From Bacteriovoracaceae bacterium (GTDB taxonomy: Bacteria > Bdellovibrionota > Bacteriovoracia > Bacteriovoracales > Bacteriovoracaceae): 64,000 bases of DNA. The notes beneath the pieces are model-generated. The model worked only from the letters and a program-made list of their open reading frames with translations. It did not search any database and had not been told where the DNA came from. The translations under genes and the position numbers were made by a program. The DNA lies in the NCBI GenBank assembly GCA_965140515.1, contig OZ223251.1:2199977-2263976 (forward strand), in the 5' to 3' direction. Shown here one piece after another: positions 18,094 to 31,360 of this stretch (the stretch's first letter is position 1; each line of letters opens with the position of its first letter).

Positions 18094-19245
18094 TTATTTT
18101 GAATTTTCAAATGCTTCTTGAATACAAGCTCTAATCTTAAAAGGTCCATCTGGAAGTGAAGCACATCTAAGCTTCGTTTTTGGTTGCTTTGGAGTGTAAT
18201 GGACATTAATTGACCCTATTCCTGTAACTGGATCGTATGATGGGTAGACGAGGAATCCTCCTTCTGAACCGTCATTTTTGTGTAATCTAATAACTGCCTT
18301 TGTTACGAGGTGAGCTACGATTGCACCGGCCAGAACATCCGTCATCCAGTGTTTTCGGTCATGCATTCTTGCGTATGATGTAACCGCTGCAAGCCCGTAT
18401 GATACGAATGGTACCCATGCATGATCTTCTTTATAAACTTCAGCGATAACTGTTGCAAAAGACCATGCTCCAGAAGAGTGCCCTGAGAAGAATGAGTTAT
18501 TTCCTTCTTGTCCAAAAGCATATGGACCCATATCGCCATTTGGTCTTACTCGTTGGAATGACTTCTTAAAACCTTCTGTAATTGCTTGAGTTGCAAGTCC
18601 AGCTGTAACTGTGAAAAGTCCAAGCTGCTTTAGTTTTCCATTATCTAAAACGGCACCAAGAAAGTATGAACCGATAGCAACAGGTGGAATAATATCTGCA
18701 CCAAACATATTTCCAACAGTGGCAAGCTTTGCAGTTTTTTCTGATTTATGATCTTGGATAAAATTCATGATTTCTTGATCTCTTTGAAAGATTACGAGTC
18801 CCAAACTTGTCGCTGCAGCAAATGCAATAAGTTCACGATTTGATAAACTAAGAGGGATGAAGTAGCCCTTTGATTCAAGGTTTGGATCAAATTTAAACAT
18901 CAGATCACTAAACTCTTTTGCCGAAATTCCTCGTTGTGAAATTTCGTGATGATCAATTGCTGCTTGCTCTTCTTCGCTACAACCGTATGCAGAACTTTGG
19001 CACTCATAGAGGTCATCTAAGTATCTTTCATATGGCCCTTTGAGATAATCTGGAGTTTCATGTTCATTTTGTCCGCAGTCATATCCTGTAAGTGTTTGCT
19101 TGCAGTCTTGGAAAAGGCCAATCTGTCTTGAGTTATCATCGCTATTATTTGATTTCTTTCCACTGAGGAACTCTTCCATGGTTGGGTTCGCAAACGCCAG
19201 TGTGTTTAGGCACAGTGCAGTCATCACAAGTAGTGCTTTCTTCAT
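18094..19245 (-). CDS. PAP2-family (acid phosphatase / lipid phosphatase) protein, secreted or membrane-associated
   Basis: PAP2 motifs KKSFQRVRP, SGHS and RMHDRKHWMTD. ATG 19245 (MKKALLVMTALCLNTLAFA) follows TGGAG; the ORF track starts at 19299. Confidence 0.75.
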   Translation of the reverse strand: MKKALLVMTALCLNTLAFANPTMEEFLSGKKSNNSDDNSRQIGLFQDCKQTLTGYDCGQNEHETPDYLKGPYERYLDDLYECQSSAYGCSEEEQAAIDHHEISQRGISAKEFSDLMFKFDPNLESKGYFIPLSLSNRELIAFAAATSLGLVIFQRDQEIMNFIQDHKSEKTAKLATVGNMFGADIIPPVAIGSYFLGAVLDNGKLKQLGLFTVTAGLATQAITEGFKKSFQRVRPNGDMGPYAFGQEGNNSFFSGHSSGAWSFATVIAEVYKEDHAWVPFVSYGLAAVTSYARMHDRKHWMTDVLAGAIVAHLVTKAVIRLHKNDGSEGGFLVYPSYDPVTGIGSINVHYTPKQPKTKLRCASLPDGPFKIRACIQEAFENSK

Positions 19246-19498
19246 CAATACTCCATATAATTTTATATTATCTATACTTTTACGCATATTATTGGACAAT
19301 TAGTTCGCTGAACAAATTTTTTTGCAAATCATATATTATTTACAGTTATACCTATGATTAGTTGATATTTATTATCATTGCGCTAAGTTACTGATTAGTT
19401 AAGAAAAATTAACTGGACTTGTTACCACGCAGTCATTTGATCTATTGAACTATTGGGTAAAAACAGCGTAAAATTCGATGATTAGAATGTGAGGATAT

Positions 19499-19882
19499 AT
19501 GAAAAATCTTTTGATCTTACTTGTTGCACTTATCTCTTTTTCTGCTTTTTCTTATGATGTATCAGATATTACAGGGACCTTTAGAGTTAATCTCAAAGGA
19601 TCTCCTGTCTACAATTTGGTAACTATTTTGGAGGATGGTCAAATTAAGCTTATCGAATACAGTAATTACGGCGAATTAGAGTGTCGCGGACGTTCTAATG
19701 TTAAAGATGATGTGATGTATTCAGATATGGTTTGCCTCAATGGTCGTCGCTTTTCTCAGGCCATTATGCTTTCTGATATCTATGAGCTAGAAGGGAATAC
19801 CAATACTCTATTCAAGGTTAGAGTTATCTCAACTCTATTTGGAGGGAGAACCAAGCTTCTAACCTTTAAGCGGGTAGACTAA
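19499..19882 (+). CDS. Small secreted hypothetical protein
   Basis: Signal peptide MKNLLILLVALISFSAFS. No family recognised. Confidence 0.45.
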   Translation: MKNLLILLVALISFSAFSYDVSDITGTFRVNLKGSPVYNLVTILEDGQIKLIEYSNYGELECRGRSNVKDDVMYSDMVCLNGRRFSQAIMLSDIYELEGNTNTLFKVRVISTLFGGRTKLLTFKRVD

Positions 19883-19972: not shown

Positions 19973-21610
19973 GTGACATTTTCAACATTTAACTTAAGGC
20001 CAGAACTCAATAAAGCAATTGAGAAACTTGGCTACGAGACGCCTACTGATATTCAGCGTGAAGCACTACCAATACTGTTGGGTGAAGATGTTGATTTTAT
20101 CGGACAAGCACAGACTGGTACCGGTAAAACTGCTGCTTTCGTTTTGCCTCTGTTACAGAAGCTCAACTCAAAAAGTAACTCTATTCAAGCTCTCGTGCTT
20201 GCTCCAACACGTGAACTTGCAAACCAGGTTTGCCAAGAAGTTGAGAAGCTTGGAGAGTTCTCTCAAATAAAAAGTTATCCTGTATTTGGTGGTGTTTGTT
20301 ATGATCGTCAAATTAAAGGGATTAAAAAAACCAAACCACAGATTGTAGTAGGAACTCCAGGACGCTTGATCGATTTAATGAATCAAGGTGTTTTAGACTT
20401 TAGCTCTACTGAGTATTTGGTTCTCGATGAGGCCGATGAAATGCTCAATATGGGATTTCTTGATGATGTGAAGAAGATTCTTTCAAGTTTTCAAAATGAA
20501 AGTAAAACGATGTGGATGTTTTCTGCAACAATGCCAGCTCCAATCTTAAATTTAATCAAAAGTGAATTTACAAATCCTAAAGTAGTTAAGGTTGAAAAGA
20601 GTACACTTAGTAATGCTGATGTTACTCAGTTTTACTACCTTGTAAGACAAAAGGAGCGCGAGACTGCGTTATGCCGTTTGATTGATTCAAACCCTGATAT
20701 GTATGGGATTGTATTTTGCAATACTAAGAAAGATACATGGGAATTGGCCGATGGTCTCATGGGGAAGGGGTATAAAGTAGATTCTCTTCATGGAGATATG
20801 GGACAGCTTCAGCGTGATCGGGCAATGGCGCGTTTTAAATCTGGTAAAAGTCGTCTTATGATTTGTACTGATGTTGCAGCTCGTGGAATTGATGTTAATA
20901 ACCTCACTCACGTTATTAACTTTGGACTACCTCGTGATATGGAATCTTATGTTCATCGAATCGGTAGGACTGGTCGTGCTGGGCTTAAAGGTCAGTCGAT
21001 TTCGTTAATCGATCCTCGTGAGCGCGGTTATCTAAAGAGATTGGAAAGGTTTACTGGACAGAGAATGTTTGAAGGTAAGCTACCAACTGCAAAACAAATG
21101 AAAAGTGGTATTCTTCGTAGAGAATTAGAGAAGACAAATAATCTAATTGAAGCTGTTTTAACAAAGGGTGATGATTTTGCGATTGATCCTTTGTTCAAGG
21201 AATTTGCAGCTCATTATGAAGCTCTTGATCGCGAAGAGTTTATGAAAGTAATGTTTTCGTGGCGTTTTAATAAAGAGTTTAAGTCTCTTGGTGAGATGAG
21301 TGAATTTGAGGATGCTCATTCAAAGAAAAAAGAAAGACGTCCAAATGCCAATAAAAATAAAGGACCTCAAAATACATCTCCAAACAATGTTCGCTTTTTT
21401 ATTAATGCTGGGAAAAAAGATGGAGTGCGCTTGCAGCCCTTTTTAAAGGCAGTCTCTGGAATTGCGAAGATAAAAAAGAATGATATTCATAATGTCGAAA
21501 TGATGAAGAAATTTAGTTTCTTTGAGGTTTCAAAGAGATATCAAAATAAGATTGCCGGACTTAAATTTTCCATTGGTGATAAAGACGTTTCAATAGAACT
21601 TTCAAAATAA
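19973..21610 (+). CDS. deaD: DEAD-box ATP-dependent RNA helicase with a DbpA-type C-terminal RNA-binding domain
   Basis: Motifs AQTGTGKT, PTRELA, DEAD, SAT and HRIGRTGRAG. Basic linker and a C-terminal VRFFINAGKKDGV segment. GTG start follows AAGGAG. Confidence 0.85.
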   Translation: MTFSTFNLRPELNKAIEKLGYETPTDIQREALPILLGEDVDFIGQAQTGTGKTAAFVLPLLQKLNSKSNSIQALVLAPTRELANQVCQEVEKLGEFSQIKSYPVFGGVCYDRQIKGIKKTKPQIVVGTPGRLIDLMNQGVLDFSSTEYLVLDEADEMLNMGFLDDVKKILSSFQNESKTMWMFSATMPAPILNLIKSEFTNPKVVKVEKSTLSNADVTQFYYLVRQKERETALCRLIDSNPDMYGIVFCNTKKDTWELADGLMGKGYKVDSLHGDMGQLQRDRAMARFKSGKSRLMICTDVAARGIDVNNLTHVINFGLPRDMESYVHRIGRTGRAGLKGQSISLIDPRERGYLKRLERFTGQRMFEGKLPTAKQMKSGILRRELEKTNNLIEAVLTKGDDFAIDPLFKEFAAHYEALDREEFMKVMFSWRFNKEFKSLGEMSEFEDAHSKKKERRPNANKNKGPQNTSPNNVRFFINAGKKDGVRLQPFLKAVSGIAKIKKNDIHNVEMMKKFSFFEVSKRYQNKIAGLKFSIGDKDVSIELSK

Positions 21611-21638
21611 AAAAAAGCACCTTTAGGTGCTTTTTTTA
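21609..21638. terminator. Bidirectional rho-independent terminator
   Basis: A-run, AAGCACC-ttta-GGTGCTT, T-run, between convergent genes. Confidence 0.65.
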
Positions 21639-22181
21639 TTCGTTCACTTCAACATCAAATACTTTTTTTAGTTGATAGATATTAGTAGAGTTTTCAATAT
21701 TTGAACACGCTACATATTTTATCTTTTCCGGTGTTCTTGAAGTCTTATTCAGTTCGATAAATACAATTGGATACTCCACAGGCATTTTGCACAGAGATCT
21801 GAATCTTTCTTTAAGTTCAAAAGAATTGTATTTATCAATAAAGTTAAATATTGATTTTGAGGTAAGTGTCGCAAAATTGCCTTGAGTAATAAAGTCAAAG
21901 AAGTCATCTTGATCCACTTCTTCAGTACTCTTAATTTTGCCACCAAGTTCTTTAAATGTATATTTGATGAATAAATTATCCCCGGCACAATTTCTACAGT
22001 AGTTTTCTTTAACCGAACACTGAGAGTAATTGTCGCACAGGTTCGCACATTGGTAACTATCATCCTGATTACATTTAATATCAAGAATTTTGATGAAGTC
22101 CTCTGTCCATTTTGACTCAATGGTAAAGGCCAAGCTTGAGATACTCAGGAGTACTGATAGTAGTGCTATTACTATCTTCAT
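21636..22181 (-). CDS. Cys-rich secreted hypothetical protein (181 aa)
   Basis: Signal peptide MKIVIALLSVLLSISSLA and a CNQDDSYQCANLCDNYSQCSVKENYCRNC cluster. Its start overlaps the stop of the upstream gene (22178-22181). Confidence 0.5.
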   Translation of the reverse strand: MKIVIALLSVLLSISSLAFTIESKWTEDFIKILDIKCNQDDSYQCANLCDNYSQCSVKENYCRNCAGDNLFIKYTFKELGGKIKSTEEVDQDDFFDFITQGNFATLTSKSIFNFIDKYNSFELKERFRSLCKMPVEYPIVFIELNKTSRTPEKIKYVACSNIENSTNIYQLKKVFDVEVNE

Positions 22182-25126
22182 CTCTTCTCCTTTGGGAAAT
22201 TACAACTGCTATCTTCCCAGAAGTTATCTTTTGTAAGTTCCCCTCGACAGAACATTCCTGCTACCTTTGTATCAACTACTTTAATTCTATTTTTGCAGTG
22301 TTTCAGTTTTATGGTAGCGCTGTCTCTGTCTTCATCAATATAGGTTACCTGTGTATTAAACAGTTTTCCTGCTGCCTTAGAAATTGCATGTTCACACTTC
22401 GAAGGCATACAGTAAGATCCTTTTACTAATTTTTTCACACAGGACTTTGGGATAGTTCCATACCGTTTATATGTGTCGAGTACATTATTCGGATTTATTT
22501 CCCACCTACGAGGTATCTCTATCGGATCAGAGAATCCTCTGAAAAATCTCATAACACCTCTGATAAGGTAGTAACTGGTGCTTACAACGGGAATATTCGC
22601 AAAAGTTGCGACCCAATTACTCATTGTTTCAAAATTGATGGTGCAGCTCGCACATCCTTGAATTGTTTTCATTGAGTTTACATCAATGTCACTCGCCGAT
22701 TGAACGCGAATTTCGCCACCATTTTTATTCATCAGGCAGCCTTTAAAAGTATAACCTGCGAAATATGCCTTTTTTGAAAGCAAGTCTGCTGAATGATTTC
22801 CTACTGAAACAGTACAAGGAATATTTAATATTTTATTGAGATCTACGCCTAGTTCTCCTGGCCAGTTATGTCCACTCATTTGAGGATCAAATGTTAACTT
22901 TCCATCCTTCATCATCTTGTTAAAAGAGGTCGCGCGTTGAGGGACATAATCGACATTTAAATAAAATGGTGTAGGGTTTACCAAGCTAATCGCTGCTGCA
23001 GTTAAGTCCGAGAAGGTATTAAAGAGTGTCTTTTTAACTTTCCACCAAGGGTCATAGATCTTACACGCTGTTCTCTCAGCATATGGATTAATTAATGATG
23101 GATCATTGATATTCTGATCATTGACATAAAATGTTCTAAAGTAGCGTACTGCTGAATAGATTGAAGTTATTGATTCCAAAATCTTTCTTGAACAGTCTGA
23201 ACCGTTGAAGCAAATGGTGTTGCTAACGGTGTTTGCTCCTCTATTTTTTAGAAGTGGAGTTCCCCAAATTGAAATAGGAGAATCTCCCTTCTTACCGATT
23301 TCATCTTTTATGATTAGTTCTTTATACCAGTCAGAGAATCCAGACCTATCGACTTCAAAATTCTCCCAGATTCCCCTTTCTTCTAATTCATTACAGAAAC
23401 TTAGAACGGCCGGGGCAACTTGTTCAAAGTAATTATAGAACTCTTTGAGCCCTTTTGAAGTCAGTTTTTTAAATGTAGGGTCGAGCTCATTCATCTGCTT
23501 GAGATAATCTAGATCTGAGCGAATAAAACTCAAGGTTTCGTGTGCCGCAACATTGTACTCTGAGCATAGGTAATACAGTTCATTTTTAAGCCCATCAACT
23601 GTGATTTTTGATGCTCCTTGATGAGACCATGCTTCTCTATTGTTTTTCGCTTTATTAAGATTATTAATAATTGAATCTACAGATAGATATTTTGAAGTTA
23701 CTTCTAATGTACTGATAGCATTCATCAGTTTGTTTTTTATATATGATCTAGATTTTCTGATATTTTTTGCAAATGATTGGGCCCACTCGTTCATATCGGG
23801 AAACTTACCGTATTCAAGTATATCATTGTTGTAATCAACAAATGGGTCATCCAAGAGTTCTTTTTCTGCACCATTTGGAATTGATTTCATAAAGTCATGA
23901 TTAAGTGCCATTTTGTTGTATGAACTTTTGGCAAAGTCTCTTATACGTTGTGAACTTAAAAAATCGTTGTCGCACCTTGATGGAGAAGTACCTCTACAGT
24001 TTGTTGAGAAAAACATTACAGATTCTTCTAAGTAAATACTCTTGAAGACTTCTCCAAAAGGATATGACATTTGTTCGATTTGTTGCGAATTCCTAAATGC
24101 CCACGAATAATAAAGTTTAAGGCTATGCCAGAAATCAAATCCAGCTTTGTCCCAATTCTTCTTGTTCGTTCCAAGTATGTCTAGTTGGTATGCTACGGCC
24201 TCTAAAGAGGATTGAGCATCTATATCATCACATGTGGTTATATATTCACTTTGATCTCCTTGAGCGATTGCCAAGGACTCAAGAACTTTTTTGTTTGCAG
24301 CAACTGTCCCAACTTGGGCCATAAATGGAGAATATTTTTTTAGAAAGTGACAGCTTAGATTACTATTTTCTTTTTCATCGATAAGTTTGCTTCCAAAAAA
24401 ATGTTTTGATGAGAAATTATCAATCTCTCCCCAGATTTCTTTTGTTTGCTTGCGGTAGCTATATTTTCGATTATTCCAAATTTTAGCAATATATTGATCA
24501 AGTTCTTCACAGTATTCGTCAAGCTTACAGCCTTCAGAAATTTGCGAGTATTGCTTTAATAAATCTTTACGATAATTGTAATAGTCTGATGTGTCGTGAT
24601 TTGGTCGGGTTTGTTCTTTGAATCGTTTTTCAAGCGCACTTGCTGTTAGATCAGCATGTAGTAGGGGAAGCCTATCTTCAAAAATCTGATTTGCAATATA
24701 TTCGATCAGCTTATAACTTGAGTACCGAAATCTCGATACTCCCATTTTTGTTAATGCTCTGGGTTCTCTTCCTGTTGATAATGCTAATCTGTAGACCGAC
24801 TTGGCCGCATTCATACTATCGATGATCAAGTTAACTTGAGTTGTTGGCCTATTCGAATCATCAGCGCAACTTGAACGATTGGTAAACTGAAGGTTATTGA
24901 TTCGAAGATATTTTGCATCGATATTTGCTCTCTTCCACTGAGGAGATACATCTTTTAGATTTATTGGATCTTCATAAGACTTCTGTTGATCATCTTTTGC
25001 AATCTTTTCAGATTCAAGTTCTGCTTGGTAGTTGTCTCCTAAGATCTCGCTGGGCATAGTTGTCTCACCACTTGCTAGTGGTGTTAACAGATAAGCTAAT
25101 AATGTGAGTAGGGCCCAGTATTTCAT
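22178..25126 (-). CDS. Large secreted hypothetical protein (982 aa)
   Basis: Long uninterrupted ORF with signal peptide MKYWALLTLLAYLLTPLASG. Many Cys. No motif recognised. Confidence 0.6.
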   Translation of the reverse strand: MKYWALLTLLAYLLTPLASGETTMPSEILGDNYQAELESEKIAKDDQQKSYEDPINLKDVSPQWKRANIDAKYLRINNLQFTNRSSCADDSNRPTTQVNLIIDSMNAAKSVYRLALSTGREPRALTKMGVSRFRYSSYKLIEYIANQIFEDRLPLLHADLTASALEKRFKEQTRPNHDTSDYYNYRKDLLKQYSQISEGCKLDEYCEELDQYIAKIWNNRKYSYRKQTKEIWGEIDNFSSKHFFGSKLIDEKENSNLSCHFLKKYSPFMAQVGTVAANKKVLESLAIAQGDQSEYITTCDDIDAQSSLEAVAYQLDILGTNKKNWDKAGFDFWHSLKLYYSWAFRNSQQIEQMSYPFGEVFKSIYLEESVMFFSTNCRGTSPSRCDNDFLSSQRIRDFAKSSYNKMALNHDFMKSIPNGAEKELLDDPFVDYNNDILEYGKFPDMNEWAQSFAKNIRKSRSYIKNKLMNAISTLEVTSKYLSVDSIINNLNKAKNNREAWSHQGASKITVDGLKNELYYLCSEYNVAAHETLSFIRSDLDYLKQMNELDPTFKKLTSKGLKEFYNYFEQVAPAVLSFCNELEERGIWENFEVDRSGFSDWYKELIIKDEIGKKGDSPISIWGTPLLKNRGANTVSNTICFNGSDCSRKILESITSIYSAVRYFRTFYVNDQNINDPSLINPYAERTACKIYDPWWKVKKTLFNTFSDLTAAAISLVNPTPFYLNVDYVPQRATSFNKMMKDGKLTFDPQMSGHNWPGELGVDLNKILNIPCTVSVGNHSADLLSKKAYFAGYTFKGCLMNKNGGEIRVQSASDIDVNSMKTIQGCASCTINFETMSNWVATFANIPVVSTSYYLIRGVMRFFRGFSDPIEIPRRWEINPNNVLDTYKRYGTIPKSCVKKLVKGSYCMPSKCEHAISKAAGKLFNTQVTYIDEDRDSATIKLKHCKNRIKVVDTKVAGMFCRGELTKDNFWEDSSCNFPKEKR

Positions 25127-25212
25127 CTTGTGTCGTATATTGCCTTAGTTTGCTGTTTTAATCACTTGTTTTGAAAAATATTCTCGTTTTTTTTGATGCT
25201 AACTAGTTAGAA

Positions 25213-26115
25213 TTACTCATCAATTTCTAGTGCGGATGAAAAGGTCACAGTGGCCGATCGATTTGGCCTTTTTCCCTCTTTTGTCTCGATAAATCGTTGG
25301 CGCCAGATACAGTGTGAATAAGATGGAAGTGTCACTCCTCGGTAGGATAGTGTTTGGTTTATTCTTTCGTAATTTGAGCTGCTGACTTGTGAAAGATTGT
25401 ATTCGTCATCTCCACATAGTAATTCATATTTTGATACTAGCTCTGAGTGGCCGGTGTAAGCGATATCATTTGGTGCAATCGCTGCTGTTATTGACGTAGT
25501 ATTTGGTATTGTTTGGTGTATGCACCAATCAACAAAATAGTTTGTCCCATAGGTCTCAGAATTGAGAACAAAGCTTAATGAATCTGTATTCAATAGCGTT
25601 GTAAATTGACTGTCTGAAAGTTCAGAATATTGATCTCGCTTTGCTGGCACTGATTGATAGTCATATTTGTACTGATCGTAGCTGTTGTTATCTGGAAATG
25701 ATGATATCGCTGTCGTCTCAGCGTGGATGTAATCATTGTATCCATGGTAGTTTGACGATGAGTTTGATATTACTTCTGATGTGGTAACCGTAACTCTACG
25801 TTTAATTGCAGCATTGCAGGGATAAATTGAAACTTGGTTTTTCTCTGGAGTTGAAAAACACTTACCAAAGTAATCTTCGCCATGGAGCCTTGTGACTCCA
25901 CTCTCAACCGTCAAGTGCCCTCGCTTAAGGGAGTTAATGCTTATACAAATCTCTTGATACTTTTTCCCATTTCCGGAATGACATACAAGTGCCTTATTTC
26001 CATGTGGCCCACACCACACAATTTGGTCCCATATGTCCCAAATGTTGACATGATCGCCAGCTATGAGTTGAAGCGATGATAATAGAAGTAATGTGGAAAA
26101 AAATAATTTTTTCAT
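25213..26115 (-). CDS. Secreted hypothetical protein; paralog of 26158..27045 with an extra N-terminal Cys/His module
   Basis: Signal peptide. Shares blocks with its neighbour: YPCNAAI vs FPCNAGI; SLSFVLNSETYGTNYFVDWC vs SLDFVLSSENYGAKYFVDIC; CGDDEY vs CDGEY. Confidence 0.55.
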   Translation of the reverse strand: MKKLFFSTLLLLSSLQLIAGDHVNIWDIWDQIVWCGPHGNKALVCHSGNGKKYQEICISINSLKRGHLTVESGVTRLHGEDYFGKCFSTPEKNQVSIYPCNAAIKRRVTVTTSEVISNSSSNYHGYNDYIHAETTAISSFPDNNSYDQYKYDYQSVPAKRDQYSELSDSQFTTLLNTDSLSFVLNSETYGTNYFVDWCIHQTIPNTTSITAAIAPNDIAYTGHSELVSKYELLCGDDEYNLSQVSSSNYERINQTLSYRGVTLPSYSHCIWRQRFIETKEGKRPNRSATVTFSSALEIDE

Positions 26116-26126
26116 TAAATTTAAGT

Positions 26127-26146
26127 GCCCCGGGAAGTCCCGGGGC
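26127..26146 (-). terminator. GC-rich hairpin between the two paralogs (terminator or attenuator candidate)
   Basis: GCCCCGGGA..TCCCGGGGC are perfectly complementary arms in an AT-rich context. The minus-strand T-tract is weak. Confidence 0.35.
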
Positions 26147-26157
26147 CATATACTTTA

Positions 26158-27045
26158 TTAGATATTTGCTGGATCAGTAATATCTGTGAAAAGAGTAAAA
26201 ATTCCGCCATGAGCAGCATGATTACGACGATCTTCTGAGTTTTCAGAGAATGTATATCTAACAACACATTTTGCAGGAGCTTCAGAGTGAGTTCCAACAA
26301 GTTGATGGTTGTTGTAGAAAACTTCTTGAGATGCAGCACTTACCGCTTGACCCATTTTTGAAGTTTTGTATTCCCCGTCGCAGTATACTTGAACATCTGC
26401 TGAAACATTTGCTTTGTTTAAGTAGTCTCTACCATTAACCATGTTAGAGAATGATACTTTTGAAGTTAGGTTATAAACTCTGTTTCCAGTTGTTGATGGT
26501 GCAAATTGAGGCCCGTAGTAACAGATGTCTACGAAATATTTTGCTCCATAATTTTCTGAACTAAGAACAAAGTCTAGGCTTGAAACAATGTAGTTTACGT
26601 CATTGATTTTATGATTGTTATAAGAAATGTCTGATGCTTGGTTCAAATTTAAGTAGCTGTTATCTTTAAAGATTGCTTGCCAAGAGTATGAACCTTGAGT
26701 TCCGGCATATTTTGAAAACTCTTTTCCTGAGTGGTCAAGTGTTTGGTTCTCTGTCCACTCATCAAACTCAACAACGTCATAGCTCATGTAGTCCGGTAGG
26801 TATGATCCTGAAACAGAAGTATTTGTTTCACTGTCAACAACTTCTGATCCGTAACCATTGTAGTTAGGATTTGTTGTGTCAACTGTGTAACCTTGCTCTG
26901 CATGTGTTCCTGAGTGAACTATCCCTGCATTACAAGGAAAGATGTCAGCTCCAGAAGAAAAAACTCTAAATTTAAAAGTGTTGTTTGCAGCTTGAGCTCC
27001 GCTTACTAGAGCAAGTGCTGAAAGTGCGATTACCATTTTTTTCAT
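26158..27045 (-). CDS. Secreted hypothetical protein; paralog of 25213..26115
   Basis: Signal peptide MKKMVIALSALALVSGAQA. Shared blocks are listed under the paralog. Confidence 0.55.
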   Translation of the reverse strand: MKKMVIALSALALVSGAQAANNTFKFRVFSSGADIFPCNAGIVHSGTHAEQGYTVDTTNPNYNGYGSEVVDSETNTSVSGSYLPDYMSYDVVEFDEWTENQTLDHSGKEFSKYAGTQGSYSWQAIFKDNSYLNLNQASDISYNNHKINDVNYIVSSLDFVLSSENYGAKYFVDICYYGPQFAPSTTGNRVYNLTSKVSFSNMVNGRDYLNKANVSADVQVYCDGEYKTSKMGQAVSAASQEVFYNNHQLVGTHSEAPAKCVVRYTFSENSEDRRNHAAHGGIFTLFTDITDPANI

Positions 27046-27068
27046 TTTAATATCTCCTTAAGTATCAA

Positions 27069-27623
27069 TTATTTACAGCCAGTGGCCTGTTTAATAATGG
27101 TTGAGTAAAATATAATCATAGCTTCATCCGCAGGGGTGAACGCTCTTCTTGTTGTGCCTTCTTCTGTGATCAATCCATACATGTATGTATTCATCGCAAT
27201 ATAAAGACTTCTTGGAACTTTGATTTCCTGTTCACAAGTCTTGTATGTGTATGAAACTGATAATCCTACAAATGGGTTTGACCCTTGATTTGTTGAATAG
27301 CTATCTCCTGGAACAATTACGATATTTCCACCGTTGTTTGAAGTATTGCCATCTCCAACATTGAACTCAATTTTAAATTCGTCACCAGAGTTTGCGATTG
27401 AAAATAGGGTACACATCCCTTTTTTACACGCCACTTTCATATCTTCGTTAATGCTCATTTGAATGTATTCTGGGGAGTATCTGATAAATTCAAACTCTTC
27501 TTCTCCCCCTGCAATGGTGTCGAATAATTCATCTTCGTTATCATAGTTGTTTTCATAACCTTGATTCGCAAACGCTACATTTAAAAGTAGGGCGCAAATC
27601 ATGAATGATAAAATCTTCTTCAT
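27069..27623 (-). CDS. Secreted hypothetical protein (184 aa)
   Basis: Signal peptide MKKILSFMICALLLNVAFA with an acidic N-terminal region. No family recognised. Confidence 0.5.
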   Translation of the reverse strand: MKKILSFMICALLLNVAFANQGYENNYDNEDELFDTIAGGEEEFEFIRYSPEYIQMSINEDMKVACKKGMCTLFSIANSGDEFKIEFNVGDGNTSNNGGNIVIVPGDSYSTNQGSNPFVGLSVSYTYKTCEQEIKVPRSLYIAMNTYMYGLITEEGTTRRAFTPADEAMIIFYSTIIKQATGCK

Positions 27624-27638
27624 ACGGTCTCCTTAAAA

Positions 27639-29243
27639 CTATTCAAGCCCATCCCAAGGACATACCACCTTGGGAAGCTCTGATATTTTTTTCATTTTGT
27701 TATTTTCGAATCTCGATTTTTTAATTTCAGTTATATCTTTGATTTTGAAGTTTCCTTCGACATCCATACCGCCAAGTGTGAAGTTAAGGGAAAGGGTCAT
27801 ATATGGACGTGAGCTGATAGTAAAACACTTATTATCTGAACACACCTTATCAAAATATTGTGGCCAATATCTAAATTTGCTAATGGTTTGAATTCCATCT
27901 GCTCCATCGCTTCCAGAATACTGTCCAAAATCTCTGATTACTCCATAGTCTGGTAGGATGTCGTGGTCCGTGATTTCTGGAATAGGCTTTGTACTCCCGA
28001 TTGTGGGGATTCCATTGAGAAGACTTGCGGCGAAGTCCATTGTTGGGATACCTGGAAGCGGCATAAATAAAGGAGTTACGCTTTTGTTATACATCGTGAA
28101 GTCAACTTTTGGGTCTCTAAATATAAGGTCTAGTTGGTACGTCTTTTCTTCACCCAGTTGGACTCCTTTAATCACTTGAGCGGGCATATTGAGTAATCCT
28201 TGCCAGTTTGGAATGGCCACGGAGCCGTCATACCATGATTTAAGATACGCTTTTTTTCCATTTATGATTTCAGAGAAGACAACTTCTGCGACCACGGGCT
28301 TTGAGTAGTTGCAGCTTGAAGTACAAATTTCTTCTAGGCAGCTTTTTTGGCAGTGAAAGTTATCAACAAGAAGTGGGAACTTTAAAATTGCAGCATCTCT
28401 GAGATTCTTAAGTTTTATATCTCCAAATGAAACTTCTGGAACCGTGTAATTTGCGGGTAGTTGAGGGACATCTCTCCCCCAGTCATCAGAGATAGTGAAA
28501 TGCTCTGAAGTTGGCTCAAGCATAAAATTGAAAAGCTTTGATGGGAGCAGCTCAAGATCTTGGGACATTCCTGTCGGTTTACTTGCGACCCCAAATGTGG
28601 TCGCGGCATTAATCTCTCTCAGTGAGATTTTTTGAGATTGTAAAAAGTCTCGCTCAAGACAGTTTTCTTTTATTCGATGACTAACAACAAACTCGCTGTC
28701 TTTATAGATTTTAAAAAAGCAGAATCCACCTTCAATAATGGCCTTTTGCTCACTTAGTTTTTTTACAGTACACCCTTGCTGTTGAGCACGATATTTTAAT
28801 GGCCGTGATGAGTTGTGGGATATTGTCGTTTCAACGCAATTCTTAAGAAAATCGGTTTTTGCTTTGTGTTCACTCTGTCGATCATTTTCGTTAATTGGTA
28901 AATTTAAGGTGTTATTCTCGATTTTACATTTTTGGGGATCAAGTGTGTCGGTATAGGCCGTTGTGTAGGTAGATGAATCAATGGAGTATTCGTTAACTCC
29001 AAAGCCTACCATGAGAAATTTTCCAGCGGCCTTTTCACAGCTATTAACGAGAACTCCCAGCTGGTGTGTCTCCGCTTTTTCACCGCGAAGTTCGAAGCGA
29101 TAAGTCTTATTCTTTTCAAGAGATGCTGAATATGAGTAGAGATCTGGACCATGAACTGAGCAGGACGTATCAACGCTTGTGGCAAATAGACTCCCACAGG
29201 CAATAAAAATAGTAATTGTTAGTAGAGCTCGATACATCTTCAT
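27639..29243 (-). CDS. Secreted, possibly lipidated, hypothetical protein (534 aa)
   Basis: Signal peptide MKMYRALLTITIFIACGSLFA with a weak lipobox-like IAC. Cys-rich. No family recognised. Confidence 0.55.
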   Translation of the reverse strand: MKMYRALLTITIFIACGSLFATSVDTSCSVHGPDLYSYSASLEKNKTYRFELRGEKAETHQLGVLVNSCEKAAGKFLMVGFGVNEYSIDSSTYTTAYTDTLDPQKCKIENNTLNLPINENDRQSEHKAKTDFLKNCVETTISHNSSRPLKYRAQQQGCTVKKLSEQKAIIEGGFCFFKIYKDSEFVVSHRIKENCLERDFLQSQKISLREINAATTFGVASKPTGMSQDLELLPSKLFNFMLEPTSEHFTISDDWGRDVPQLPANYTVPEVSFGDIKLKNLRDAAILKFPLLVDNFHCQKSCLEEICTSSCNYSKPVVAEVVFSEIINGKKAYLKSWYDGSVAIPNWQGLLNMPAQVIKGVQLGEEKTYQLDLIFRDPKVDFTMYNKSVTPLFMPLPGIPTMDFAASLLNGIPTIGSTKPIPEITDHDILPDYGVIRDFGQYSGSDGADGIQTISKFRYWPQYFDKVCSDNKCFTISSRPYMTLSLNFTLGGMDVEGNFKIKDITEIKKSRFENNKMKKISELPKVVCPWDGLE

Positions 29244-29393
29244 TAGAATCCTAGTTAAACTTAAACGAGTGTTTATCAGGATACTTTTCAGATGTACATA
29301 AGAAACAATTTATAAGTCGATTGTTTGAAACTATTACACGTTTATTTTGATGTTCTATATGAAAAATATTTATATGGATGTTTGTGAATGACC

Positions 29394-30542
29394 TTACTGA
29401 GGAGTATTTCCCCATCTTTGCTGAGGTAATACACATGGATTATCAGATAATTGGCCCTTTTTGTATCTGATAATATATTGGCGCATATTAATAGGTATGT
29501 TTGAAGAGCAAATATTTTTTAGTTGATATTTGCCTTTACGTGAAATTTCCCTTCCAACCAGAAAATCGAGTCCGCGCTCGATATTTTGGTCACTCATTTC
29601 TCCTTCTTGATCAAAACTTTTTACCTTAAGCCAGAGACCTGCTAATCCCATAATTGATTCGAAAATGATCCTATCTCTTGATGTTGTGGAGTAGTTGTAT
29701 TGAAAATCTGCATCCATGCATTGGGGGGGGGTTACATTTAATGAGAGACTTACTGTACGTACTCTTGATTCAAGGAGCGTGCAAATATTGCTGATGTGTC
29801 TCTCTACTGCCTCTTTAATCGTCTCTTTTCTTTTTCTAATAAGTTTCTTTATCTTCCTCATTGCTTCTGCTTCACCGAACTCTCTTACCAGTTGATACTG
29901 CTCGAAGTTTTCAGATGGAAGTGATAGCTCTTTTCCAATTTGATCTGAGGTTCTTAATCGTAAAAATCCGTAAGGAGATTCTGTAATAGGTCTTGCAGGC
30001 ATCCCAACTCTTTGTAATATTGGCCTTACCACACGTGGTACTGTTGAGTACCACAGCTCAATATTCCCATTATTGCGTATATCTTTAATTAAATAGCTGT
30101 GAAAATTTCCACTGCTTTCTCGATAAATAAAAATATCCCCACTTCTAATCTCTGAAATCGGAATTGGGTAGCTGAAGTCATCTGCTAGTTGATAGCTTCC
30201 GAATGACAATGCAAGGTCTTCTATCAATAGTTTAACTCTTTCAATTTCGGATTCAACTGAGTCATACTCTGAACTGCGATTGCTTAATTTGTTGGGGGCC
30301 TGAAAAGGTAATGAATGTTCATAAGAAAATATCACTCGCTGGGCAAGGATGAAGTCTGCGCAATCCGTTTTCACTCCATAAAATGGGGACTCTTGATTGC
30401 TAAAGATATCGCTTGATAGCGTTTTTTTAACCCACTTGCTATATTTCGCCTCCCATCCTGTGTCCCAAGCATTAGTGTCTTCCCACACCACTGCGAGTGA
30501 GATATTTGAAACTATTAATAGGAATAGAACAGACCATTTCAT
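29394..30542 (-). CDS. Secreted hypothetical protein with a possible NlpC/P60-like Cys/His signature
   Basis: ATG 30542 gives MKWSVLFLLIVSNISLA; the ORF track starts at 30590 and overlaps the upstream gene. TDCADFI ... SGDIFIYRESSGNFHSYLI resembles the DCSGxV ... GDLxF...HVxIY pattern. Contains a C9 tract (29723-29731). Confidence 0.45.
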   Translation of the reverse strand: MKWSVLFLLIVSNISLAVVWEDTNAWDTGWEAKYSKWVKKTLSSDIFSNQESPFYGVKTDCADFILAQRVIFSYEHSLPFQAPNKLSNRSSEYDSVESEIERVKLLIEDLALSFGSYQLADDFSYPIPISEIRSGDIFIYRESSGNFHSYLIKDIRNNGNIELWYSTVPRVVRPILQRVGMPARPITESPYGFLRLRTSDQIGKELSLPSENFEQYQLVREFGEAEAMRKIKKLIRKRKETIKEAVERHISNICTLLESRVRTVSLSLNVTPPQCMDADFQYNYSTTSRDRIIFESIMGLAGLWLKVKSFDQEGEMSDQNIERGLDFLVGREISRKGKYQLKNICSSNIPINMRQYIIRYKKGQLSDNPCVLPQQRWGNTPQ

Positions 30543-30586
30543 GGGCGTTTGATACCATTTCTTTTCTGATGTGGGAAATCGAATTT

Positions 30587-31360
30587 TCAATTGAACTTAA
30601 GTGATGGAAAATACTTTGTCCTTCTACGTTTATTTTCATCATTAACAAGTCTTTCAATCTCACCCGATTTCTTCATTTCCTCAATAACTTTATTGAGCTT
30701 CGTAATAAAATCTTTGGCCACGGGGTTGCTCTTGTTACAAATAACATGTGTTGTGTAGATCTTGATTGGTTGATTTATTACAGTGATACTGCTTTTGTAA
30801 TTGATATATTTCGATGAGATTAGATATTTGATAGTGGATTGTTCTTCTAAGATTGCATCTACTCTTCCTGAACCGAGCATCTTTATCAGTTCATTGACAT
30901 CACCGGCGTTGATATAGCGAATTCCTGGAATGTTGTAGACCTCTTTTGGATATGCATACCCATTTGCGAGACCAATTCGAAGTCCCTGAAGATCGTTAAG
31001 AGTATGAATTGTTTGCTTCACAATCTTATTGATTGCAATGACCATAGTTGTACTTATTACCGGCGATGAGTATAGGAAACGTTTAGAGCGGTCCTCTGTA
31101 TAATACGCCCCTCCCGCGCAGAGAATATGATTTTTTTCTACTTCACGAAGGGCCCTATTCCAAGGATACCATTCGACCTTTAGCTTGTAGTCAAGTTTGC
31201 TCAATGCCTTTTTTAAAATAATGGGGAATATTCCCCCATCTTTCATAAAGCGAGAACTGTAAGGGGGCCAATCTGTTTCAAACGCAATTCTCATCTCATT
31301 GGCAAAAGTCATCTGGGTAAAGAGCAAGAATGTTAGGATTAGAAATCTTTCAAATCTCAT
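30587..31360 (-). CDS. Periplasmic solute-binding protein family-3-like protein (orphan)
   Basis: Signal peptide, ~250 aa. WPPY and GLANGYAYP-type blocks typical of PBPb-type binding proteins. No ABC permease or ATPase nearby. Confidence 0.55.
   Translation of the reverse strand: MRFERFLILTFLLFTQMTFANEMRIAFETDWPPYSSRFMKDGGIFPIILKKALSKLDYKLKVEWYPWNRALREVEKNHILCAGGAYYTEDRSKRFLYSSPVISTTMVIAINKIVKQTIHTLNDLQGLRIGLANGYAYPKEVYNIPGIRYINAGDVNELIKMLGSGRVDAILEEQSTIKYLISSKYINYKSSITVINQPIKIYTTHVICNKSNPVAKDFITKLNKVIEEMKKSGEIERLVNDENKRRRTKYFPSLKFN

What the first reader, a model, noticed from the sequence alone, without database searches (positions are those of the whole stretch)
21636..30590. Seven consecutive signal-peptide ORFs, mostly without recognisable families: candidate undescribed secreted or surface system
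All seven minus-strand genes begin with a classic Sec-type signal peptide (MKK..., hydrophobic core, A-x-A-like end). Their sizes are 398, 534, 184, 295, 300, 982 and 181 aa.

Most are Cys-rich, consistent with oxidised periplasmic or extracellular proteins. None shows a catalytic or structural motif I can name, apart from a weak NlpC/P60-like Cys...His pattern in the first (TDCADFI ... GDIFIY...GNFHSYLI).

Spacing is operon-like: 15, 23 and 42 nt gaps and one ATGA overlap at 22178-22181. Two larger gaps, 29244-29393 and 25127-25212, could hold internal promoters.

A 982-aa secreted giant, a duplicated ~300-aa module, small Cys-knot-like proteins and a possible cell-wall hydrolase sit together in a genome rich in secreted hydrolases. 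That combination is what I would expect of a lineage-specific prey-attack, adhesion or envelope-remodelling apparatus. There is no secretion ATPase, usher or known toxin domain, so it does not match any named system.
Basis: inference. Interest (0 to 1): 0.7.

Follow-up and report, generated by a model that had tools for sequence, protein, structure and literature searches.

The report
Predator-specific cluster of secreted proteins
Seven neighbouring genes for exported, cysteine-rich proteins are real and are inherited together across the predatory-bacteria phylum Bdellovibrionota, but five of the six protein families match nothing known, so this is a genuine uncharacterised system whose function is still open.

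Summary
Seven minus-strand genes at 21636-30590 all encode Sec-type exported proteins that are cysteine-rich and have no further membrane segments.

They fall into six unrelated families; D and E are old paralogues. These families travel together in 43 related loci, all from Bdellovibrionota, including cultured Bdellovibrio, Bacteriovorax and Halobacteriovorax. Nothing else is co-conserved with them: no ATPase, usher or outer-membrane channel.

Families B, C, D/E, F and G have no hit in Pfam, NCBIfam, PHROGs, PADLOC or PDB sequences. The model of F matches no PDB fold.

Protein A gave a confident model (pLDDT 94.5). It has the core layout of a papain-like NlpC/P60/CHAP enzyme, with invariant Cys, "GD" and His, and is a distant relative of Pfam DUF4846.

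F and G are translationally coupled. Gene D is followed by a conserved stem-loop.

The inferred Bdellovibrio HD100 equivalents (Bd0748-Bd0754) are silent in attack phase, unchanged at prey entry and weakly expressed during growth. This does not support a "prey-attack weapon".

Best reading: a new extracytoplasmic multiprotein assembly with its own cell-wall or maturation enzyme. Function is unproven.

The parts
29394..30542 (-). Gene A: exported 382-aa protein. It has an N-terminal papain-like (NlpC/P60/CHAP/DUF4846-like) Cys-His domain and a C-terminal all-helical domain. The long TTG ORF runs to 30590.
   Evidence: ORF. True start at Met17, from P0012. Invariant D76-C77, G151 (the G of the 'GD' motif, GD in the consensus) and H164. 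AF2 model with pLDDT 94.5 and pTM 0.91: Cys at a helix N-terminus, GD then strand, His at the start of the next strand. Weak Foldseek hits to CHAP domains and endolysins. 7 of 70 homologues hit Pfam DUF4846, which PMC10318531 classes as papain-like and NlpC/P60-like.
27639..29243 (-). Gene B: exported 534-aa protein with 15 Cys; family of unknown fold.
   Evidence: Found in 35 loci. About 12 conserved Cys. No Pfam hit in 32 homologues. No PDB-sequence hit. It follows gene D directly in 31 loci.
27069..27623 (-). Gene C: exported 184-aa protein and one of the best conserved families of the six. It has 4 invariant Cys and the C-terminal motif FTPADEAMIMFYTTIMKQAxGC.
   Evidence: mean column identity 42% over 35 sequences. 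Found in 37 loci. No Pfam or PDB hit. Usually sits directly upstream of F (26 loci).
26158..27045 (-). Gene D: exported 295-aa protein rich in Ser/Asn/Tyr, the fastest-evolving family. Candidate abundant subunit.
   Evidence: mean column identity 15%; invariant C38, C175, C222, C260, E268, R274. 66 members in 37 loci, with up to 6 copies in L041. Followed by a stable stem-loop in most loci. Highest transcript level of the block in HD100.
26127..26146 (-). GC-rich stem-loop (8 G-C pairs) directly after gene D. Candidate attenuator or mRNA stabiliser.
   Evidence: A stable hairpin (<= -15 kcal/mol) follows D at 23 of 32 D->B junctions, against 0 of 31 F->G and 0 of 17 B->C junctions. Fisher test for junctions after D or C versus all others: p=1.4e-9.
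25213..26115 (-). Gene E: exported 300-aa paralogue of D (the 'second copy' lineage).
   Evidence: E=3e-11. tblastn places it with the second D-type gene of other loci. In other genomes this copy sits just upstream of A, with a median gap of 4 nt in 9 loci.
22178..25126 (-). Gene F: exported 982-aa protein with 22 Cys, mostly alpha-helical. It is the anchor of the cluster.
   Evidence: 18 invariant Cys; motif NPYAERTACKxYDPWW. Found in 42 loci. AF2 model with pLDDT 60.7; residues 73-385 score 70-93. No PDB fold match, best E 0.49. No Pfam hit in 33 homologues.
21636..22181 (-). Gene G: exported 181-aa protein with 8 conserved Cys (C-x7-C-x3-C-x5-C-x6-C-x2-C). Translationally coupled to F.
   Evidence: F->G adjacency in 37 loci with a median gap of -4 nt. 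No Pfam or PDB hit.
21610..21637 (-). Intrinsic-terminator-like hairpin (12-bp stem plus T-run) ending the block, shared with the convergent DEAD-box helicase gene.

Best explanation
The block is a Bdellovibrionota-specific functional module. Six unrelated families of Sec-exported, disulfide-stabilised proteins act together outside the cytoplasm, in the periplasm or on the cell surface, as a multiprotein assembly.

Proposed roles (inference):
- D is the abundant, fast-evolving subunit. Its gene is followed by a stem-loop that lets it be expressed in excess.
- E is its low-copy paralogue.
- C is a small, highly conserved partner.
- F and G are made in a 1:1 ratio by translational coupling and form the large core.
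- B accompanies D.
- A is a dedicated papain-like (NlpC/P60/CHAP/DUF4846-type) cysteine enzyme. It either opens or modifies peptidoglycan locally, or processes or attaches a subunit.

No ATPase, usher or channel belongs to the module. Assembly would therefore have to be spontaneous or use general envelope machinery.

In Bdellovibrio the genes are transcribed during intraperiplasmic or axenic growth, not in attack phase. The assembly would then be built while new cells are made.

Shown here: export signals, conserved cysteines, co-inheritance, coupling, the hairpin, and the fold class of A. Inferred: that the products form one physical assembly, the role of each part, and the function.
For: Co-inheritance:
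- 43 loci, all Bdellovibrionota, carry F. B, C, D/E and G lie within 10 kb in 35-37 of them. No other family is shared by more than 6 loci.
- Linkage survives repeated reshuffling of gene order: DB(D)CFG, CFGDBDA, FG-ad-DBC and ABCDDFG.

Coupling:
- F->G has a median gap of -4 nt in 37 loci.
- Second D copy->A has a median gap of 4 nt.

Stoichiometry hints:
- Hairpins occur after D (23/32) and after C (9/25), against 0/31, 0/17 and 0/10 at other junctions; p=1.4e-9.
- D and C homologues have the highest RPKM of the block in HD100 (37 and 28, against 0-10). They are the only ones up in HI growth.

Export and disulfides:
- Signal peptides are present in 83-100% of homologues of each family, with no later TM segment in the window proteins.
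- Invariant Cys: 18 in F, about 12 in B, 8 in G, 4 in C, 4 in D/E.

Other:
- D/E is hypervariable and expands to 6 copies in L041.
- Enzyme A.
Against: - No physical interaction has been shown or modelled.
- Only two of the seven proteins could be modelled, and F only at low confidence.
- No outer-membrane or anchoring component was identified, so the location is unknown.
- Expression in HD100 is very low (all called 'silent', RPKM<50).
- None of Bd0747-Bd0754 appears in the held, truncated part of a 2025 proteome table, while 5 of 9 neighbouring genes do.
- A is within 10 kb in only 15 of 44 loci, and its family also occurs elsewhere.
- Microarray changes differ between genes of the block.
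- The HD100 mapping rests on synteny and gene sizes in other B. bacteriovorus strains, not on direct alignment with HD100.
Confidence: 0.4

Rival explanations
1. A periplasmic envelope-remodelling pathway rather than a structure. The proteins are soluble periplasmic factors, with A as the hydrolase. They would act on the predator's own cell wall or outer membrane during filamentous growth and division.
For: Growth-phase rather than attack-phase transcription in HD100. A is NlpC/P60-like. No outer-membrane component was found. The module is restricted to a phylum with an unusual growth mode.
Against: Only A has any enzyme-like signature. The hypervariable, multi-copy D/E family and the hairpin-boosted D gene look more like a structural or exposed subunit. 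Expression is far below that of typical growth genes.
Confidence: 0.2
2. A cocktail of prey-directed secreted effectors. The proteins would be exported into the prey and damage or bind prey envelope components.
For: The module is restricted to predatory lineages. All products are secreted. A resembles cell-wall hydrolases and endolysin domains. D/E diversification could reflect prey diversity.
Against: The genes are silent in attack phase and unchanged 30 min after entry. They are not among the Tn-seq predation-defective genes listed. Strict co-linkage and F-G coupling suggest a complex rather than independent effectors. No toxin or hydrolase domain in B-G.
Confidence: 0.15
3. A periplasmic thiol-redox or metal-handling system. 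The conserved CxxC-type motifs would bind metals or shuttle disulfides: G has C-x2-C, F has C825-x2-C828, and B has C-x3-C-x4-C-x3-C.
For: Invariant CxxC-like spacings in G, F and B.
Against: No thioredoxin, cupredoxin, cytochrome or other redox or metal domain was detected in about 240 homologues. Many other conserved Cys fit structural disulfides. There are no linked transporters or oxidoreductases.
Confidence: 0.07
4. There is no functional unit: unrelated secreted-protein genes lie side by side by chance or by shared regulation only.
For: Signal-peptide ORFs are common in this window (27 of 60 by a crude test). A also occurs outside the cluster.
Against: Five families stay linked in 35-42 of 44 loci across both major predatory classes despite rearrangements. 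Overlapping start/stop codons are conserved.
Confidence: 0.03

Closest known systems
NlpC/P60, CHAP and DUF4846 papain-like cysteine hydrolases (applies to protein A only)
   Same: Invariant Cys at the N-terminus of a helix, a 'GD' motif leading into a strand, and an invariant His at the start of the next strand. 7 of 70 homologues hit DUF4846, and one has a sub-threshold CHAP hit. The best, though weak, fold hits are CHAP domains and phage peptidoglycan hydrolases. PMC10318531 describes DUF4846 as probably NlpC/P60-like.
   Different: The window protein itself hits no Pfam or NCBIfam model. No Foldseek hit reaches E<=1e-3. No conserved third catalytic residue was identified. It carries a roughly 170-residue all-helical, Cys-containing C-terminal domain with no match.
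Curli (type VIII secretion) and Fap functional-amyloid operons (comparison from my own knowledge of these systems)
   Same: All components are Sec-exported. No ATPase is present. There is a major subunit plus a divergent paralogue (CsgA/CsgB, FapC/FapB; here D/E), and several small accessory proteins. Fap includes a papain-fold cysteine peptidase (FapD), as this block includes A.
   Different: No CsgG- or FapF-like outer-membrane channel was detected. D/E have no internal repeats. The proteins are Cys-rich. There is no sequence or profile similarity.
Chaperone-usher pili and type IV minor-pilin/PilY1 operons (comparison from my own knowledge)
   Same: Size pattern: several proteins of 180-300 aa plus one of about 1000 aa. 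A presumed major-subunit gene is followed by a hairpin. HD100 Bd0749 was once labelled 'pilus assembly protein'.
   Different: No usher, PapD-like chaperone, secretin, ATPase or prepilin (N-methylation) leader. The leaders are ordinary Sec type.
Cys-rich periplasmic proteins of F-type conjugation systems: TraN, TraU, TraH (comparison from my own knowledge)
   Same: A set of Sec-exported, cysteine-rich proteins without enzymatic motifs that act in the envelope. One large member has about 22 Cys.
   Different: No Pfam hit to any Tra family in about 240 homologues. No T4SS genes are nearby. No homologues on plasmids.

Membership tests
NlpC/P60 / CHAP / DUF4846 (papain-like clan), protein A | Family HMM match above the curated threshold on the window protein | tested here: not met
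   No Pfam or NCBIfam hit at E<=1 to any of these families.
NlpC/P60 / CHAP / DUF4846 (papain-like clan), protein A | Homologues bridge to a family of the clan | tested here: inconclusive
   7 of 70 homologues hit PF16138 DUF4846 (best E 5e-6). One homologue has a sub-threshold CHAP hit (E 0.005).
NlpC/P60 / CHAP / DUF4846 (papain-like clan), protein A | Catalytic Cys at a helix N-terminus and His on a following beta-strand, both invariant; 'GD' motif before the first strand | tested here: met
   C77, H164 and G151 are invariant (GD in the consensus) in 14 and in 70 sequences. The AF2 model (pLDDT 94.5) has a helix at 61-75 starting at C61, GD135-136 leading into strand 137-141, and H148 in strand 147-155, in 382-aa numbering. 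The GD criterion is from PMC10318531.
NlpC/P60 / CHAP / DUF4846 (papain-like clan), protein A | Third catalytic polar residue on the next strand | tested here: inconclusive
   No conserved His/Asp/Glu/Asn in strand 161-165. Only the Ser-Thr just after it is conserved.
NlpC/P60 / CHAP / DUF4846 (papain-like clan), protein A | Significant structural superposition on a solved member | tested here: not met
   No Foldseek hit with E<=1e-3 in PDB or BFVD. The best local hits are CHAP domains with probability 0.23-0.44 and a phage protein with probability 0.94 and E 0.016.
NlpC/P60 / CHAP / DUF4846 (papain-like clan), protein A | Hydrolytic activity on peptidoglycan or peptide substrates | not testable with these tools
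   Needs biochemistry.
Curli (T8SS) / Fap amyloid systems | Dedicated outer-membrane channel (CsgG or FapF) | tested here: not met
   No such Pfam or NCBIfam hit in the seven proteins. No further co-conserved gene in 44 loci.
Curli (T8SS) / Fap amyloid systems | Subunit built of imperfect sequence repeats | tested here: not met
   Self-BLAST of each of the seven proteins finds no internal repeat.
Chaperone-usher pili | Usher and PapD-like periplasmic chaperone | tested here: not met
Type IV pili / T2SS pseudopili (minor pilin + PilY1 operon) | Prepilin leader with N-methylation motif; assembly ATPase and secretin | tested here: not met
   The leaders are Sec type with a hydrophobic core and an A-x-A-like end. 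No N_methyl hit. No ATPase or secretin nearby.
F-type T4SS periplasmic Cys-rich proteins (TraN/U/H) | Match to Tra family models; linkage to T4SS genes | tested here: not met
Anti-phage defence or phage-derived module | Match to PADLOC or PHROGs models | tested here: not met
   Only two isolated chance-level hits (E 0.0009 and 0.007).

The most novel reading that the evidence does not exclude
The block encodes a previously unseen kind of envelope or surface organelle, unique to predatory Bdellovibrionota. It would be assembled from Sec-exported, disulfide-locked subunits without any ATPase, usher or dedicated channel, using a hypervariable major subunit (D) and a giant F-G core. It would be built into progeny cells during growth and used in the next encounter with prey or for envelope integrity. 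If so, five new protein folds or families and a new assembly principle would be involved.
Probability: 0.25. Interest if true: 0.85.

Novelty: categorically new. Interest (0 to 1): 0.66.

Why it matters
Predatory Bdellovibrionota are studied as 'living antibiotics', yet much of their lineage-specific gene content has no known function.

This module is one of the few multi-gene blocks shared by both major predatory classes: Bdellovibrio on one side, Bacteriovorax and Halobacteriovorax on the other. It is absent from everything else searched here. Five of its six families appear in no domain or structure library. The searchable literature says nothing about the apparent HD100 equivalents (Bd0748-Bd0754), whose old annotations ('pilus assembly protein', 'putative protease', 'cation-transporting ATPase') look spurious.

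It gives a concrete, genetically tractable target in HD100. Deleting or tagging seven adjacent genes could reveal a new envelope structure or process tied to the predatory lifestyle, and several new protein folds.

Tried and rejected
**Searches that led nowhere**
- The look-up of encoding contigs with the window's F and with P0001 found no exact record.
- A profile of 33 F homologues in the search for homologous proteins added only one fragment.
As a result no alignments usable by structure prediction could be made for B, C, D, E or G.
- Profile searches of all six families against PDB sequences found nothing credible.
- hhalign of B vs D/E and of C vs G aligned only the signal peptides.
- Foldseek of the F model against PDB found nothing.
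- PHROGs and PADLOC found nothing.
- tblastn of F and B against plasmids found nothing.
- Unusually long homologues, scanned for informative fused domains, had none.
- Rfam and tRNA scans of the window found nothing.

**Ideas considered and dropped**
- Link to the hit locus (Bd0108): the Bdellovibrio copy lies next to Bd0742/Bd0743 instead.
- B as a lipoprotein: many homologues have Cys right after an A-x-A site, but several lineages, including the window's, have the Cys 3-6 residues further on.
- SBP_bac_3 as part of the module: it is absent in the closest relative.
- Amyloid-type subunits: no repeats.

**Literature**
- No main-text mention of Bd0747-Bd0756 in the searchable library.
- Two comparative-genomics papers had no held supplements.

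Full report
**1. Observation**

The region 21636-30590 holds seven consecutive minus-strand ORFs of 398, 534, 184, 295, 300, 982 and 181 aa, called A to G here. A-B is 150 nt, B-C 15, C-D 23, D-E 42 and E-F 86, and F and G overlap by ATGA.

Every product has an N-terminal hydrophobic, signal-peptide-like segment and no later TM-like segment. Cys counts are 5, 15, 5, 4, 8, 22 and 8.

A needs one correction. Its signal peptide begins at Met17, and the identical database protein (P0012, 382 aa) starts there. A is therefore 29394-30542.

The upstream gene 30587-31360 is an ordinary family-3 solute-binding protein (Pfam SBP_bac_3, E=1.5e-13).

A run of exported proteins is not rare in this window. 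A crude hydropathy test, which over-calls, flags 27 of 60 ORFs. The run alone proves little.

**2. The genes are inherited together**

F has only 10-11 clusters in the word-indexed protein database, none with a Pfam domain. A pattern scan of one genome per species found 43 loci encoding F relatives. The titled organisms include:
- Bacteriovoracaceae
- Halobacteriovorax marinus
- Bacteriovorax stolpii
- Bacteriovorax sp. DB6_IX
- three Bdellovibrio bacteriovorus strains
- Pseudobdellovibrionaceae
- unclassified Bdellovibrionota or 'Oligoflexia' MAGs

One record is titled Sulfitobacter but has 39% GC and the same gene order as a Halobacteriovorax locus, so it is probably mislabelled.

tblastn of the window proteins against these loci shows B, C, D, G and often E and A next to F almost everywhere. 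I clustered all ORFs of the 44 loci, plus the window, without supervision. This gave F in 42 loci, D/E in 37 (66 members), G in 37, C in 37, B in 35 and A in 15. No other family occurs in more than 6 loci. The module is therefore self-contained. It has no ATPase, usher, secretin or outer-membrane barrel partner.

Gene order is reshuffled between lineages but linkage persists:
- DB(D)CFG in most Bacteriovoracaceae
- CFGDBDA in Bdellovibrio
- FG with A and a D copy on the other strand, then DBC, in a third group
- ABCDDFG in the window and its closest relative

Conserved pairs:
- F->G, 37 loci, median gap -4 nt; 34 have 10 nt or less
- D->B, 31 loci
- C->F, 26 loci
- B->second D copy, median gap -1 nt
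- second D copy->A, 9 loci, median gap 4 nt

**3. What the proteins are**

None of the seven hits Pfam or NCBIfam, PHROGs or PADLOC.

I scanned homologues one by one against Pfam. There were no consistent hits for F (0/33), B (0/32), D/E (0/42), C (0/35) or G (0/30). Family profiles find nothing credible among PDB sequences. Profile-profile comparison shows the families are unrelated to one another apart from their signal peptides. D and E are the exception: they are paralogues (E=3e-11).

Conserved cysteines dominate the alignments:
- F: 18 invariant Cys in the first alignment, plus motifs such as NPYAERTACKxYDPWW
- B: about 12
- G: 8, spaced C-x7-C-x3-C-x5-C-x6-C-x2-C
- C: 4, plus the C-terminal motif FTPADEAMIMFYTTIMKQAxGC
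- D/E: 4, plus motifs IYACNAGI, SExYGAEYFVDxC and PRFCxVRYxFxE

C is among the most conserved families (42% mean column identity). D/E is by far the least conserved (15%), varies from 248 to 474 aa, and reaches six copies in one genome. None of the proteins has internal repeats.

The AF2 model of F was built from 11 sequences and has low overall confidence (pLDDT 60.7). Its block at residues 73-385 is confident and mostly helical. It matches no PDB fold (best E 0.49).

**4.

An exhaustive phmmer search found 563 cluster representatives at E<=1e-3. A 70-sequence alignment keeps D-C (C77 in ORF numbering), G151 (of the 'GD' motif) and H164 invariant.

The AF2 model is confident (pLDDT 94.5, pTM 0.91). 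The Cys opens a helix. 'GD' leads into a strand. The His opens the next strand, and three more strands follow. An all-helical C-terminal domain completes the protein. This order of elements is the core signature of NlpC/P60 and CHAP enzymes (established knowledge).

Foldseek gives no significant hit. Its highest-probability local hits are CHAP domains (2k3a, 5t1q, 2lrj), the C39 domain of PCAT1, and phage peptidoglycan hydrolases, CHAP proteins and a DUF6950 protein.

Seven of 70 homologues hit Pfam DUF4846 (best E 5e-6). One has a sub-threshold CHAP hit. [quoted passage not shown]

I could not identify a conserved third catalytic residue.

A family members also occur away from the module. A is therefore a frequent companion rather than a core part.

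**5. Regulatory anatomy**

A GC-rich stem-loop (26127-26146) follows D in the window, and a terminator-like hairpin (21610-21637) ends the block. Across loci, stable hairpins (<= -15 kcal/mol within 70 nt) occur at:
- D->B junctions: 23 of 32
- C->F junctions: 9 of 25
- F->G junctions: 0 of 31
- B->C junctions: 0 of 17
- G->D junctions: 0 of 10

Fisher's test gives p=1.4e-9. I read this as a device for making D, and sometimes C, in excess over the downstream genes. This is an inference.

**6. Evidence from Bdellovibrio bacteriovorus**

In strains kdesi, Bd5 and YOA24 the operon is C-F-G-D-B-D'-A. It lies beside a 206-aa ECF sigma factor and a GGDEF-FHA protein on one side, and a PF10023 aminopeptidase on the other.

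I compared these markers and the gene sizes with the coordinates in Table S1 of Karunker et al. 2013 (PMC3627812) and with Lambert et al. 2012 (PMC3464611; bd0743 = 206 aa). The block maps to HD100 as follows:

| HD100 gene | Family | Old annotation |
|---|---|---|
| Bd0748 | A | - |
| Bd0749 | D' | 'pilus assembly protein' |
| Bd0750 | B | - |
| Bd0751 | D | 'putative protease' |
| Bd0752 | G | 'putative cation-transporting ATPase' |
| Bd0753 | F | - |
| Bd0754 | C | 'putative protease' |

This mapping is by synteny, not by direct alignment with HD100.

RNA-seq RPKM:

| Gene | Attack phase | 3-h growth phase |
|---|---|---|
| Bd0748 | 0.25 | 0.85 |
| Bd0749 | 0 | 0 |
| Bd0750 | 0 | 10.3 |
| Bd0751 | 0.9 | 37.4 |
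| Bd0752 | 0 | 5.1 |
| Bd0753 | 0.2 | 8.3 |
| Bd0754 | 0.6 | 28.4 |

The microarray of Lambert et al. 2010 (PMC2797640) shows no change 30 min after prey entry (1.0-1.3-fold, not significant). In host-independent growth only Bd0751 (2.7x) and Bd0754 (5.3x) rise.

None of these genes appears in the predation-defective lists of the Tn-seq study PMC6561027.

None appears in the held, truncated part of a 2025 proteome table, while 5 of 9 neighbouring genes do.

No paper in the searchable library mentions Bd0747-Bd0756 in its text.

**7. Interpretation**

The best-supported reading is that these six families work together outside the cytoplasm as one multiprotein assembly. The grounds are persistent linkage despite rearrangement, translational coupling, stoichiometry signals, export and conserved disulfides.

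D is the likely abundant and exposed subunit. F-G is the large core. A is a dedicated NlpC/P60-like enzyme for local wall remodelling or subunit processing.

The module works without any energy-coupling or channel component of its own. In that one respect it resembles curli and Fap systems (my own knowledge), but it fails their defining tests.

Transcription timing in Bdellovibrio argues against a weapon deployed at attack. It fits something built while new cells are made.

The rivals cannot be excluded without structures, localisation and mutants. They are a soluble envelope-remodelling pathway, prey-directed effectors, and a redox or metal system.

**8. Novelty and verdict**

The feature is real and lineage-specific. 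Apart from the superfamily of A, it is unrelated to anything in the libraries searched, and I found no description of it in the searchable literature. I rate it categorically new as a gene module, with function unproven. Interest is 0.66.

Noticed in passing
window 30587-31360 (-): A family-3 solute-binding protein gene (Pfam SBP_bac_3) with its own signal peptide sits directly upstream of A. It overlaps only A's over-long TTG ORF. It is absent from the closest relative's locus (L005), where the IOR gene abuts A.
   Followed up: partly
window 22178-25126 (-); P0001: The public annotation of this very protein (P0001, 959 aa, 100% identical) starts 23 residues later and so lacks the signal peptide. 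All homologues keep an N-terminal hydrophobic leader, so the longer ORF is probably correct.
   Followed up: partly
L004 (JBLHVN010000002.1, titled Sulfitobacter sp. MAG, 1.27-Mb contig): This locus has 39% GC and the same D-B-D-C-F-G order as a Halobacteriovorax MAG (L006). The organism label is almost certainly wrong.
   Followed up: partly
L025 (B. bacteriovorus kdesi, NZ_CP102930 about 1.10 Mb): A second, solitary paralogue of F lies far from the cluster with none of the partner genes nearby. It is 43% identical to the clustered copy.
   Followed up: partly
L041 13210-17386 and 6545-7420: One Bdellovibrionota MAG carries six D-family genes, five of them in a tight tandem array. This suggests diversification of that subunit.
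   Followed up: no
L037 (uncultured Bacteriovoracaceae MAG): This locus has 64% GC, far above the 33-50% of all other loci, yet carries C, F, G, D and B homologues.
   Followed up: no
L045 2490-4623: An A-family gene outside the module lies immediately after an HTTM-domain gene (PF05090, vitamin-K-dependent carboxylase-like) and near a PKD-domain protein. In L046 another lies before an Lnb_N-domain gene. The A family therefore has other, unexplored contexts.
   Followed up: no
window 18094-19299 (-) and 19499-19882 (+): Just beyond the block lie a PAP2-superfamily phosphatase with an N-terminal leader and a small 127-aa exported ORF. Neither is conserved with the module.
   Followed up: no
B. 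bacteriovorus loci L030/L031 18398-20017; HD100 Bd0743-Bd0746: In Bdellovibrio the module converges on two small genes described as unique to Bdellovibrio (Bd0745, Bd0746) and the ECF sigma factor Bd0743, next to dgcB (Bd0742), which is required for prey invasion. Whether Bd0743 controls the module is unknown. The sigma factor is not linked in other lineages.
   Followed up: partly
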